DNA from: a virus
IMG/VR virus record: IMGVR_UViG_3300034407_001956
Span: 1 to 64,000 of that record
DNA: 64,000 nucleotides
Direction: 5' to 3' (one strand)
A program made the position numbers and the translations under genes. The notes under the pieces were generated by a model. That model was given only the letters and a program-made list of their open reading frames with translations. It was not told the DNA's origin and did no database searches. Below, one piece after another: positions 53,922 to 63,283 of this stretch. The stretch's first letter is position 1. The number at the start of each line of letters is the position of its first letter.

Positions 53922-54338
53922 ATGGTAAATAAAAATGATATGAGATGGCCTAAGGTTTGTGAGGGTGAATGTGTACCGAAGGGATGGGGAGAAGAAATAA
54001 TAATAGCTAATAACAAAGACTATTGTGGTAAGGTATTGGTATTCAAAGAAAGCGGTAAGTTCTCAATGCACTTCCATATGATAAAGGACGAGACGTGGTA
54101 TGTAGAGAAGGGAAGGTTTGTGTATAGGTGGATAGATATATTAACAGCGGAGATAAAAGAAAACCTATTAAAGCCAGGCGACGTGGTAAGACAAAGGCCA
54201 GGCCAACCTCACCAATTGGAGTGTCTAAACGGTGGCGGTAGGATATTTGAGGTGAGTACAGAACATAAGGATTCAGACTCATATAGGGTAATGCCAGGTG
54301 ACTCTCAATCTAAGAAGGACATCAACCCATTTAAGTAA
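53922..54338 (+). CDS. Cupin (mannose-6-P isomerase/lyxose isomerase-like)
   Basis: VPKGWG.E, YCGK, SMHFH..KDETW, PGQPH, EVST...DSYRV..GD. Confidence 0.8.
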   Translation: MVNKNDMRWPKVCEGECVPKGWGEEIIIANNKDYCGKVLVFKESGKFSMHFHMIKDETWYVEKGRFVYRWIDILTAEIKENLLKPGDVVRQRPGQPHQLECLNGGGRIFEVSTEHKDSDSYRVMPGDSQSKKDINPFK

Positions 54339-54750: not shown

Positions 54751-54882
54751 CACTACTTATTAGATATAAATCAGTATGTCAGGGAGCGCAGAGTATATCG
54801 CTCGTATGTCATACTGTCAGAGTATTTTTTATAGTAGCTTTGATATTATCGGTATGTCAAAGTGACAGAAATGGAGGGTTTT

Positions 54883-55398
54883 ATGGCTAAAGTAAGCAAA
54901 TCTAAGGTAGTATGGGCGATTAATGAGACTCAGAGTATGCGTCAAGCCTCTCAATTGTTAGGCTTAGCGTATAATACGTTTAAGAAGTACGCAAAGTTGT
55001 ATGAGGTGTGGGCTCCGTTAGAGACAAACGCAGGTATACCACAGCGTAGTAGCGGAGGACTTAAACCAGCTGAGTTGGAAGATATATTCGCTGGAAAGAA
55101 TCCATCGTATAGTTCTACTAAGTTATTACACCGCTGTTTTAGGGAAGGATACTTAGCAGAGGAGTGTAGTAACTGTGGATATGATGAGTACCGCCCCTCT
55201 GATATGACTAAACCGCTAATGTTGGATTACTTAGATGATGACCAGACCAATAAGGAGCTAGCCAATCTCAGGGTATTGTGTTATTGTTGTTATTATATAC
55301 TCAAAATGGACAGATTAGAGGTAGAAGTACCAGCAAATGTCAAATCCTTTCAGAAAGCCATATACACCGCTTTTAATCAGAGTAACGAATCCAAGTAG
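54883..55398 (+). CDS. HTH + zinc-binding HNH-like protein with degenerate catalytic residues
   Basis: SMRQASQLLGLAYNTFKKYAK HTH; CSNCG...LMLDYLDDDQTN..LANLRVLCYCCY; SD GGAGG. Confidence 0.75.
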   Translation: MAKVSKSKVVWAINETQSMRQASQLLGLAYNTFKKYAKLYEVWAPLETNAGIPQRSSGGLKPAELEDIFAGKNPSYSSTKLLHRCFREGYLAEECSNCGYDEYRPSDMTKPLMLDYLDDDQTNKELANLRVLCYCCYYILKMDRLEVEVPANVKSFQKAIYTAFNQSNESK

Positions 55399-55426
55399 TT
55401 TGTTATATCTTTCAGGGCCAACCCTG

Positions 55427-55455
55427 AATTTACACAATTCTGACGTAAAAGTCAA
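55427..55455 (-). promoter_or_regulatory. Minus-strand sigma70-type promoter
   Basis: TTGACT-N17-TAAATT with TG extended -10 on the reverse strand. Confidence 0.55.
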
Positions 55456-55518
55456 GCCATAATATAACTTTTTTTAATAGAAGCGCTGTCATGATGCCGT
55501 GCGCAGAGTCGCCAATCC

Positions 55519-55702
55519 AAAATAAATGAAAATAAGGCTTGACATTGTGGTTTATTCTGTGTATATTAAGGTGTTGAATGAGGGGATTAAACGATGGATT
55601 CAACGCTCTTTGAAAATTAGTTAAAAAAAGTTAAAATAAGGCTTGACTTTCTCATTTATTCTCTGTATATTAAGGGGTTGGATGAGGTGAGTTTTTTGAA
55701 AA
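55519..55702 (+). promoter_or_regulatory. Tandem duplicated sigma70 promoters P1/P2, each followed by a boxA-like element
   Basis: P1 TTGACA 55539-N17-TATATT; P2 TTGACT 55643-N17-TATATT; A-tract UP elements; CGCTCTTTGAAAA 55604-16 and GTTTTTTGAAAA 55691-702. Confidence 0.8.
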
Positions 55703-55711
55703 GTTAAAGAA

Positions 55712-56140
55712 TTAGGAACTAAGGTTAAGAGCCACTGCTAGTCGTCATTCGACTTCTGGAGTTCCGAAAGACATCGCACCGAAAGGGGCTGAAACGCTGG
55801 GTTTGGAAACCTAACTGAGTAAGGTGCGGACATAGAAGGCCTGTGATAGAGTTCTAATCAAACTCTTAGGTAAGAGGTTGTCTGAGGACAAAAGGGAGTG
55901 ATTGCCTGAGTAGTCCGTTAGTAAGGCTGTGGGGTTCGAATCCCCACCTTTGTTTTCGGTTGTTGGTCCGATATAAAACCAACAAAGATTTTAGTTGAGC
56001 TGAGGAGCCAAAAACCGACCCGATTAAATACGAGCTTGATGATGGGTGTTAATAGACAGTTTAAAGCCTGATGGACAGACAACTAAGTATGGAGGCTGGA
56101 GACTAGCGATGTCAATAAGACTCTCTCCCCTCCGCCGGTT
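55712..56140 (+). ncRNA. Large structured non-coding RNA (~430 nt), class unassigned
   Basis: No ORF of 60 aa or more on the + strand; GC-richer; long-range helices GACATCGC/GCGATGTC, GCTAGTC/GACTAGC, GTTGTCTG/CAGACAAC; T-loop hairpin; local hairpins. Confidence 0.72.
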
Positions 56141-56235
56141 TTGTGACAGAATGACAGAGTAATATAATATCAGCGGTACGCTGAAAAATAAGTAGCTCAT
56201 AACTATTTATTACCATATAACGGAGAACACTATAT

Positions 56236-56427
56236 ATGAAGCAAACTAAGAAAGCAACAGATTTCGACATAATAGAGATAATAGAGCAGGAGATGATAAG
56301 CATGTGGAATACAGGTGAGATTCCCTATCTGCTGAAGAAGGATCCGGAATTCGTACAGGTGATAATGGAAGGGCTGATGTTGGAACGCAGCTTTTGGAGT
56401 CAGAATATGGTGGTGGGAGAGGCTTGA
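56236..56427 (+). CDS. Small hypothetical protein
   Basis: SD GGAG; 63 aa. Confidence 0.5.
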   Translation: MKQTKKATDFDIIEIIEQEMISMWNTGEIPYLLKKDPEFVQVIMEGLMLERSFWSQNMVVGEA

Positions 56428-56589
56428 CAATATGACATACCCCCGGCATTAAGTCGTTAATCGCCAAACTATGACAAAGTGACAGGCGCTCCATATTGGT
56501 TCCTGAATCGGACCAGGTTTTGAGTTCCTATAGAAATTGATATATTATGTGTATCGTAAACGATAAAAAATAAACAGCTAGGAGTTATA

Positions 56590-63182: not shown

Positions 63183-63254
63183 GCGAGTATCGTATAATGG
63201 TTATTACCTTAGCCTTCCAAGCTAATGATGTTGGTTCGATTCCAACTACTCGCT
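63183..63254 (+). tRNA. tRNA-Gly(UCC); CCA not encoded
   Basis: Acceptor GCGAGTA/TACTCGC, anticodon arm TTAGC-CTTCCAA-GCTAA, T arm GTTGG-TTCGATT-CCAAC, U discriminator. Confidence 0.95.
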
Positions 63255-63283
63255 CAAAAATTTATAAAAACTAAGGAGTAAAA

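What the first reader, a model, noticed from the sequence alone, without database searches (positions are those of the whole stretch)
55712..56140. Large, pseudoknotted ~430-nt non-coding RNA of unrecognised class
Seen: a GC-richer stretch with no sizeable + strand ORF in an otherwise gene-packed genome. Long-range complements: GCTAGTC(55737-43)/GACTAGC(56101-07) and GACATCGC(55770-77)/GCGATGTC(56106-13) in A-B-A'-B' pseudoknot order, the 3' partners lying largely in the loop of a GGAGG..GGAGA/TCTCC.CCTCC hairpin (56091-133); GTTGTCTG(55877-84)/CAGACAAC(56076-83); GGAACT/AGTTCC; CGCACC/GGTGCG; AGAGTT/AACTCT; TTGTTGGT/ACCAACAA; TCGGTT/AACCGA; GCGGAC(55826-31)/GTCCGT(55913-18). It lacks RNase P, tmRNA and intron consensus. 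Known: phages carry large ornate ncRNAs of unknown function (GOLLD, ROOL). Inference: a new or divergent class, highly expressed from host-type promoters, possibly a decoy, scaffold or ribozyme, or an RNP with the dead HNH.
Basis: partly seen in the sequence, partly recalled or inferred. Interest (0 to 1): 0.88.

Follow-up and report, generated by a model that had tools for sequence, protein, structure and literature searches.

The report
Phage array of structured small RNAs
This stretch is not one giant knotted RNA but a string of three separable, conserved, folded small RNAs (one with a tRNA-type arm), probably made early in infection by an uncultured marine phage; they match no described RNA family and their function is unknown.

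Summary
Homologues from 6 viral contigs and about 60 marine metagenome contigs show three independent cassettes. These are X (55715-55765), module 1 (55770-55947, plus a linker hairpin to 55987) and module 2 (55993-56142).

- **Module 1:** eight helices are supported by covariation. Of all sequence-by-pair cells, 97% form a pair, and 27 of 43 pairs show compensatory changes; 0 of 500 shuffles reach the observed score. It contains a canonical tRNA-type T-arm and two invariant loops that are perfectly complementary.
- **Module 2:** it has its own covarying closing helix and 3' hairpin.
- **Separability:** the cassettes occur alone, in other orders and with other cassettes. One near-identical relative has cleanly lost module 1.
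- **Long-range pairs:** the five pairings that defined the "pseudoknot" show no covariation and break in relatives.

No Rfam family matches, and ARAGORN calls nothing here. The unit sits behind two tandem sigma70-type promoters and boxA-like leader motifs of the rRNA-operon type, which suggests a Rho-protected untranslated RNA operon. Function is unknown. My best guess is trans-acting stable RNAs, with module 1 offering a tRNA-elbow mimic to a host tRNA-binding factor. Another first-stage note in this scan covered the same stretch on the same genome.

The parts
55539..55567 (+). Promoter P1 (-35 TTGACA, 17-nt spacer, -10 TATATT) with an A-rich upstream tract
   Evidence: Promoter scan, 11 of 12 matches. 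It belongs to a repeated promoter family of this genome.
55571..55615 (+). P1 leader: a hairpin (55571-79 with 55598-606) followed by a boxA-like motif at 55605-55615
   Evidence: The motif matches the published boxA consensus GYTCTTTAANA (PMC5725501) at 10 of 11 positions. Relatives carry perfect matches about 37 nt after the -10 element. Function is inferred.
55643..55671 (+). Promoter P2, an 84%-identical duplicate of the P1 unit
55691..55701 (+). Degenerate boxA-like motif in the P2 leader (9 of 11 positions)
   Evidence: Read from the sequence and compared with relatives' leaders.
55715..55765 (+). Cassette X: a closing helix (55715-20 with 55760-65) around a conserved stretch and a variable inner hairpin (55740-44 with 55750-54)
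   Evidence: The closing helix covaries at two positions. The cassette stands alone in L008, L009 and L014, and lies after module 1 in L006.
55770..55947 (+). Module 1, a structured RNA of about 180 nt. Helices: H1 55774-80/55823-29; hpA 55800-03/55808-11; H2 55839-41/55869-71; hpB 55848-53/55861-66 with 7-nt loop 55854-60; H5 55880-83/55924-27; H3 55886-89/55913-16; H4 55894-96/55905-07 with loop 55897-904; T-arm 55929-34/55942-47 with loop UUCGAAU
   Evidence: RNAalifold on a MAFFT alignment of 28 sequences gives 18 of 32 pairs compensatory. On the covariance-model alignment of 31 distinct sequences, 97.3% of cells pair, 27 of 43 pairs change on both sides, and the covariation score is 0.418 against 0.160 for shuffles (0 of 500 reach it) and at most 0.08 for slid controls. 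Frequent G-U pairs fix the strand as +.
55855..55904 (+). Candidate kissing-loop pseudoknot inside module 1: hpB loop UAAUCA (55855-60) with H4 loop UGAUUR (55899-904)
   Evidence: The two loops are complementary in every one of the 30 distinct sequences that have letters at both loops, including the 5'-truncated forms (L004, L005). Five pairs never vary and one varies U-A/U-G, so there is no covariation proof.
55948..55992 (+). Linker: hairpin 55960-67 with 55978-85, then an A/U-rich junction (AAAGAUUUU)
   Evidence: Relatives replace it with a different hairpin of similar placement. The same junction follows every cassette.
55993..56142 (+). Module 2, about 150 nt: P1 55993-97/56080-84; P1b 56000-02/56076-78; P2 56018-21/56044-47; P3 56057-59/56068-70; long 3' hairpin 56091-56133 with a conserved loop; U-tract 56139-42
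   Evidence: On a MAFFT alignment of 42 distinct sequences, 98.1% of cells pair, 14 of 28 pairs are compensatory, and the covariation score is 0.255 against 0.108 (0 of 500 shuffles reach it). It stands alone in L031, L083 and L095, in L095 behind its own promoter.
54862..55398 (+). Neighbouring 178-aa HNH-like ORF. It is context only and not shown to belong to the RNA.
   Evidence: Matches PHROG HNH endonuclease families at E 2.6e-9 and 1.3e-8. Where I read the catalytic His-His it has Asp-Tyr (inspection only). Used as the synteny anchor.

Best explanation
**What it is.** The interval is the body of one untranslated early transcription unit. It is about 465 nt from P2 and about 570 nt from P1, and ends at the 56091-56142 hairpin and U-tract. 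It strings together three independently evolving structured RNA cassettes: X, module 1 and module 2.

**How it works**
1. Host RNA polymerase starts at strong sigma70-type promoters (inferred).
2. A boxA-like motif in the leader recruits the host Nus factors, as in rRNA operons. The long untranslated transcript then escapes Rho and reads through the weak linker hairpins (inferred).
3. The precursor is probably cut at the A/U-rich junctions after each hairpin into stable small RNAs (inferred, not shown).

**Module 1.** It folds into a compact body locked by an internal loop-loop interaction and displays a canonical tRNA T-arm without an acceptor stem. My best guess, at about 0.3, is that this elbow mimic engages a host tRNA-recognising protein. 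Candidates are a modification or processing enzyme or a tRNA-directed nuclease. The RNA would then act as a decoy, or would borrow tRNA-like stability.

**Module 2 and X.** They are separate trans-acting RNAs with unknown partners.

**Shown:** conservation, strand, secondary structures and modularity. **Not shown:** transcript ends, processing, partners and function.
For: - **Conservation and synteny:**
- **Covariation-supported structures:** module 1, module 2, X.
- **Modularity:**
  - L006 has module 1 followed by its own promoter and X.
  - L031 and L095 have module 2 alone.
  - L008 has X alone.
  - Other cassettes are interleaved in many loci.
  - L083 is near-identical to the window but lacks 55587-55983, and keeps module 2 with a compensatory change in its hairpin.
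- **Promoters and leader:**
- **T-arm:** the loop fits the tRNA consensus and the stem covaries (UA/GC/CG and GC/AU). In some relatives the hpA hairpin is replaced by a second T-arm.
- **No coding signal:**
- **No known family:**
Against: - No direct evidence of transcription, RNA ends or processing. RNA-library contigs cover the region, but DNA carry-over cannot be excluded.
- The window's own boxA-like motifs are imperfect (10 of 11 and 9 of 11).
- The 3' hairpin of module 2 is separated from its U-tract by about 5 nt, so it is not a textbook terminator.
- The kissing loop has no covariation because both loops are invariant. It could equally be intermolecular.
- Module 1 is absent from 4 of 5 larger relatives' contigs, so it is accessory.
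- Nothing identifies a protein partner. No antisense target was found in the 94 kb held.
Confidence: 0.6

Rival explanations
1. One reading: one ~430-nt RNA whose 5' and 3' parts are tied together by long-range helices in pseudoknot order.
For: The complementary motifs exist in this sequence and in its 5 closest relatives. Nothing between the modules looks like a promoter.
Against: - On 19 full-length homologues the five long-range helices have a covariation score of 0.062 against 0.057 for shuffles.
- No more pairs change on both sides than in shuffles, and many one-sided changes break pairs.
- The loop motif said to pair with 55770-77 is present in 15 loci that lack module 1 altogether. Only 7 of 31 loci that have module 1 carry it.
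- Each partner of these helices is already used by a covarying local helix.
- The modules occur apart.
Confidence: 0.05
2. A single multi-domain RNA that is never processed. The cassettes are domains of one functional molecule whose domain content varies between phages, without base pairing between domains.
For: - The cassettes are co-linear behind shared promoters with only weak hairpins between them.
- Most loci that have module 1 also carry module 2 downstream; these loci were collected by a module-2 pattern.
Against: - Module order and content vary freely.
- Single cassettes exist with their own promoter and terminator-like end.
- A near-isogenic deletion of module 1 survives in nature.
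Confidence: 0.2
3. A cis-acting leader: tandem riboswitch- or attenuator-like elements that control read-through into the downstream small early genes (56236 onward).
For: - Each cassette ends in a hairpin followed by U-rich sequence.
- Module 2 has a highly conserved junction core directly before a terminator-like hairpin.
- A gene follows within 100 nt.
Against: - A separate promoter-like site (56141-68) lies between module 2 and the next gene.
- In many loci module 2 is followed by another promoter or cassette instead of a gene.
- Downstream genes differ between loci.
- The boxA-like leader suggests antitermination across the unit.
Confidence: 0.1
4. A decayed tRNA or tmRNA gene, or an attachment-site relic, that merely retains a T-arm.
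For: - A T-arm with a perfect tRNA-type loop, and a 12-bit local match to the tmRNA model.
- The phage encodes a real tmRNA and two tRNAs elsewhere.
Against: - No acceptor stem, no CCA, no D-arm and no conserved tag frame.
- No similarity to the phage's own tmRNA beyond the T-arm.
- The sequence 3' of the T-arm is not conserved, whereas the T-stem and seven other helices covary under selection.
Confidence: 0.05

Closest known systems
tRNA-like domains of tmRNA and of bacterial Y RNAs (YrlA)
   Same: A hairpin with the canonical T-loop and a G-C closing pair, embedded in a larger non-tRNA scaffold. Elbow mimicry is the working principle of both (established knowledge).
   Different: - No acceptor stem, CCA end or D-arm analogue.
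- No Rfam match at gathering score.
- No conserved tag reading frame.
- No Ro/TROVE gene in the 94 kb held.
Stable RNAs C and D (species 1 and 2) of phage T4, encoded beside its tRNA genes (my own knowledge, not checked here)
   Same: Small stable RNAs of unknown function in a T4-like phage, co-transcribed in an untranslated RNA gene cluster from early promoters.
   Different: No sequence match to any of 50,697 phage records. The T4 RNAs sit within a tRNA cluster, whereas here the nearest tRNA is 7 kb away.
rRNA operon leaders (tandem promoters, boxB-like hairpin, boxA)
   Same: Duplicated strong promoters, a hairpin, then a motif matching GYTCTTTAANA in front of a long untranslated structured transcript.
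   Different: The products are not rRNA. Nus factor binding is untested, and the window's own motifs carry one and two mismatches.
phi29 prohead RNA, and the ROOL and GOLLD assemblies
   Same: Structured phage-associated RNAs in which complementary loops mediate RNA-RNA contacts. The complementary loop pair of module 1 could act within or between molecules.
   Different: No sequence or model match. The RNAs are much smaller than ROOL or GOLLD. This phage is distantly T4-like, a group not known to use packaging RNA (my own knowledge). Oligomerisation is pure conjecture here.

Membership tests
tRNA | Cloverleaf with acceptor stem, D-arm, anticodon arm and T-arm | tested here: not met
   ARAGORN finds no gene in 55400-56300. 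The Rfam tRNA model has no hit there. Only the T-arm is present.
tmRNA (one-piece or permuted) | Score at or above the Rfam gathering threshold; 5'/3' acceptor pairing; tag reading frame | tested here: not met
   RF00023 scores 12 bits against a gathering score of 47, over the T-arm only. The candidate frame is broken by a 1-nt indel among homologues. The sequence 3' of the T-arm is not conserved and has no 5' partner.
GOLLD, ROOL, OLE, HEARO, RNase P, group I/II introns, 6S, SRP, known ribozymes | Match to the Rfam covariance model | tested here: not met
   cmscan of the window at gathering scores, and of 55400-56300 at E up to 10, lists none of them. Relatives' cassettes also have no match.
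YrlA / bacterial Y RNA | Rfam match, and a Ro (TROVE) protein gene in the genome | tested here: not met
   No Rfam hit. No TROVE match in the 94-kb record. The record is only about 51% complete.
Structured non-coding RNA (generic) | Conserved helices maintained by compensatory changes; no conserved ORF | tested here: met
boxA / Nus antitermination leader | GYTCTTTAANA-type motif shortly after the promoter of an untranslated unit | tested here: inconclusive
   Nine distinct relatives' leader contexts match perfectly, and 17 of the 21 sites found with a relaxed pattern lie in array leaders. Spacing after the -10 element is 37-38 nt in the 7 leaders where a promoter was called. The window has 10 of 11 and 9 of 11 matches. 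Binding was not tested.
Intrinsic terminator (3' end of module 2) | GC-rich stem immediately followed by a U-tract | tested here: inconclusive
   The stem covaries strongly, but the U-tract starts about 5 nt after it and the loop is 15 nt. The scan tool did not list it.

The most novel reading that the evidence does not exclude
Abundant marine myoviruses carry a mix-and-match operon of several undescribed structured RNA classes, transcribed under rRNA-type antitermination. One class (module 1) is an acceptor-less mimic of the tRNA elbow that neutralises or hijacks a host tRNA-directed enzyme or defence nuclease. This would be an RNA-based host-takeover or counter-defence toolkit.
Probability: 0.2. 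Interest if true: 0.85.

Novelty: new variant of a known kind. Interest (0 to 1): 0.6.

Why it matters
Phage-encoded structured RNAs with strong covariation support and no family assignment are rare starting points for finding new RNA functions. These ones occur in dozens of marine metagenome contigs from many samples, and come as exchangeable cassettes behind rRNA-like control signals. One combines a bona fide tRNA T-arm with a candidate kissing-loop lock. If they act on host tRNA biology or defence, they would add an RNA layer to phage takeover in the ocean. If not, they are still well-defined new motifs for Rfam and for structural work.

Tried and rejected
- **Cultured phages:** blastn of the region against 50,697 phage records found no match.
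- **Bacterial genomes:** the one pattern hit (L096) lies in GC-rich sequence with none of the rest of module 2. I read it as a chance match inside a bacterial gene.
- **Ro/TROVE protein:** none in the genome.
- **Similarity to the phage's own tmRNA:** only the T-arm.
- **tmRNA tag idea** (a GCC-started frame in module 2): the frame is not conserved.
- **Acceptor-stem searches:** I looked for a 5' partner of the sequence after the T-arm, and for a helix enclosing the linker. Neither is conserved (by eye).
- **Hammerhead type II reading of the H1 junction:** the essential G of CUGANGA is missing, and there is no Rfam hit.
- **Antisense targets of conserved single-stranded segments in the 94-kb record:** only 9-11-mers, which I judge within chance for 94 kb; no control was run.
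- **Alternative arm 55904-07/55924-27 from another first-stage note:** it fails in many relatives, whereas 55880-83/55924-27 holds in all (and by eye).
- **RNA libraries:** 14 runs recorded as RNA hold part of the stretch. Contigs from four of them lie on 55200-56500, including 248-nt and 229-nt pieces inside 55651-55916. These are assembled contigs, the flanking genes are also covered and DNA carry-over is possible, so they are not evidence of expression, ends or strand.
- **Fremin 2023 catalogue of viral structured RNAs (PMC10690425):** it could not be checked for this motif because no supplementary files are held.

Full report
**Context.** The window is the first 64 kb of a 94-kb IMG/VR viral contig, estimated to be about 51% complete. 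Its family B DNA polymerase is 46% identical to that of Microcystis phage Mel-JY01 and about 31-33% identical to those of pelagiphage and cyanophage T4-like myoviruses. Helicase, ribonucleotide reductase and glycosyltransferase genes fit a large lytic myovirus. All sizeable ORFs run on the + strand.

**The observation.** The finding lies in a 0.8-kb gap between a 178-aa ORF (54862-55398) and a 63-aa ORF (56236-56427).
- The GC rise is real.
- Two sigma70-type promoters precede the region, at 55539-67 and 55643-71. The second is an 84%-identical duplicate of the first.
- The single sequence gives no statistical support for structure. The + strand minimum free energy has a z-score of +0.55. Complementary 6-8-mers, local or long-range, are no more frequent than in dinucleotide shuffles.

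**Known families.** cmscan against Rfam 15 finds nothing in the region at gathering scores. At E up to 10 it finds only chance-level hits, plus a 12-bit match of the tmRNA model to a 15-nt T-loop segment at 55931-45. ARAGORN calls nothing there.

**Homologues.** The upstream ORF served as a synteny anchor and brought in 25 viral loci. Five carry recognisable homologues of the region directly downstream. A 20-nt conserved pattern from the 3' half then retrieved 62 marine metagenome loci, 61 of them true. No cultured phage record matches. The single hit in 185,579 species genomes I read as a chance match inside a bacterial gene, since none of the rest of module 2 is present there.

**Modularity.** The alignments show at once that the region is a concatenation of cassettes.
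- L006 has the 5' part (module 1) and then a new promoter.
- L031 and L095 have only the 3' part (module 2), in L095 directly behind its own promoter.
- L004 and L005 carry a 5'-truncated module 1.
- Many loci interleave other conserved cassettes between or instead of these.
- L083 is near-identical to the window on both sides but lacks 55587-55983. It therefore lacks P2, cassette X, module 1 and the linker. P1 then drives module 2 directly, and its hairpin carries a compensatory A-U to G-C change.
- The short 5' element X (55715-65) stands alone in L008, L009 and L014, and follows module 1 in L006. Its closing helix covaries at two positions.
- Module 1 is missing from four of five larger relatives' contigs, so it is accessory.

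**Structure of module 1.**
- A MAFFT alignment of 28 distinct copies gave an RNAalifold structure in which 18 of 32 pairs show compensatory changes.
- I built a covariance model from this alignment with a hand-checked structure. It re-found 40 copies, including a distant 28-bit variant in L018.
- On the resulting alignment of 31 distinct sequences, 97.3% of cells pair and 27 of 43 pairs change on both sides. The covariation score is 0.418 against 0.160 for shuffles (0 of 500 reach it), and at most 0.08 when partners are slid by 1-3 columns. This alignment is fitted to the model, so the figures lean towards it. The structure-blind alignment points the same way.
- The architecture is as follows:
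  - A 7-bp closing helix H1 surrounds a purine-rich junction and a hairpin. In some relatives that hairpin is replaced by a second T-arm.
  - Helix H2 carries a 6-bp hairpin with an invariant 7-nt loop.
  - Helices H5, H3 and H4 stack and end in an invariant 8-nt loop.
  - A 6-bp T-arm has the loop UUCGAAU.
- Six nucleotides of the two invariant loops (55855-60 and 55899-904) are complementary in every sequence that has letters at both loops, including the truncated forms. This is a plausible kissing-loop pseudoknot. It is unproven because nothing varies.
- Abundant G-U pairs assign the RNA to the + strand.

**Structure of module 2.** On 42 distinct sequences aligned by MAFFT, the closing helices P1 and P1b, a small hairpin P3 and the long 3' hairpin covary. 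Of all cells, 98.1% pair, 14 of 28 pairs are compensatory, and the covariation score is 0.255 against 0.108, with 0 of 500 shuffles reaching it. The core between them is almost invariant in sequence.

- I wrote the five proposed helices as a pseudoknotted structure on an alignment of 19 full-length homologues. The covariation score was 0.062 against 0.057, and no more pairs changed on both sides than in shuffles. Substitutions simply break the pairs, for example in 11 of 19 and 14 of 19 sequences at individual positions.
- The hairpin-loop motif said to pair with 55770-77 occurs in 22 of 61 loci. Fifteen of those have neither module 1 nor the partner motif upstream. Only 7 of 31 loci with module 1 carry it.
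- The 3' partners of two of the helices lie in the covarying 3' hairpin of module 2, and the partner at 56076-83 is used by P1/P1b. 55913-18 belongs to H3 and 55826-29 to H1.
- The pseudoknot is therefore a coincidence of this lineage.

**Transcription signals.** The promoter type recurs seven times in the genome and also drives protein genes, so I take it to be the phage's early promoter class (inferred).
- Another first-stage note proposed a boxA element in the leader. I checked it against the consensus GYTCTTTAANA derived by Baniulyte et al. (PMC5725501).
- Nine distinct relatives' leader contexts match it perfectly. With a relaxed pattern, 17 of the 21 sites in 1.28 Mb of fetched sequence (both strands counted) lie in array leaders. 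The spacing after the -10 element is 37-38 nt in the seven leaders where my promoter pattern fired.
- The window has GCTCTTTGAAA after a hairpin in the P1 leader (10 of 11) and a weaker copy after P2 (9 of 11).
- This fits Nus-dependent protection of a long untranslated transcript, as in rRNA operons. Binding is untested.

**Expression.** Fourteen runs recorded as RNA hold part of the stretch, and contigs from four of them lie on it. They are assembled contigs, the flanks are also covered and DNA carry-over cannot be excluded. I do not count this as evidence.

**Function.** No antisense target was found in the 94 kb, no Ro protein and no similarity to the phage's tmRNA beyond the T-arm.
- The upstream ORF belongs to HNH endonuclease families. 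Where I read the catalytic His-His it has Asp-Tyr (inspection only).
- Its link to the RNAs is adjacency only. In L018 the module 1 variant lies 4 kb from it, and L008 has only cassette X beside it.
- I therefore commit only to trans-acting stable RNAs released from an rRNA-operon-like precursor. Module 1 would be an acceptor-less tRNA-elbow mimic for a host tRNA-binding factor, at a probability of about 0.3.
- The rivals are a single unprocessed multi-domain RNA, a cis-acting leader, and a tRNA or tmRNA relic. They are scored in their own sections.

**Verdict.** The RNA call and the claim of no known family stand, and are now backed by covariation. The 430-nt pseudoknotted single molecule does not stand. 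What is there is a cassette array of at least three new structured RNA motifs in an abundant group of uncultured marine myoviruses.

Noticed in passing
G000:C1:89665-90074 (outside the window; L098:11665-12074): A complete one-piece tmRNA gene: Rfam RF00023 at 74.4 bits (gathering score 47), also called by ARAGORN with a long tag ending YAYA. A relative's contig (L034:502-919) carries one at 99.2 bits. Phage tmRNAs are already known in marine myophages (PMC9004378).
   Followed up: partly
G000:C1:77352-77553 (L097:13352-13553): A manA RNA motif (RF01745) at 64.7 bits, above its gathering score of 55.2.
   Followed up: no
window 63183-63255 and G000:C1:91491-91563: Two different tRNA-Gly(UCC) genes 28 kb apart. 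Their sequences differ, so they are not a duplication artefact.
   Followed up: partly
window 15620, 55513, 55617, 62122; G000 80268, 85641, 86474: A repeated family of strong sigma70-type promoters, each preceded by an A-rich tract. Some of them drive protein genes.
   Followed up: partly
Relatives, e.g. L035:1352-1540, L072:1520-1620, L034 upstream of its module 2, L040, L091: At least three further conserved RNA-like cassettes of about 70-190 nt are interleaved in the arrays. None has an Rfam match. They were not analysed for covariation.
   Followed up: partly
L083:700-1240 (- strand): A natural near-isogenic deletion variant that lacks the equivalent of window 55587-55983. The end points lie at short similar sequences, which suggests recombination between them.
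   Followed up: yes
window 54862-55398: An HNH-family ORF with an N-terminal region that looks to me like a helix-turn-helix (not tested). Where I read the catalytic His-His it has Asp-Tyr, and the relatives read by eye do too. It may be an inactivated homing endonuclease turned DNA-binding protein.
   Followed up: partly
window 53922-54338: A cupin-fold ORF that matches a PHROG annotated as cysteine dioxygenase (E 9e-34).
   Followed up: no
L018:9809-9970: A distant variant of module 1 (28 bits) that keeps H1, H5 and the T-arm but replaces the two kissing arms with shorter elements. It could help define the minimal core.
   Followed up: partly
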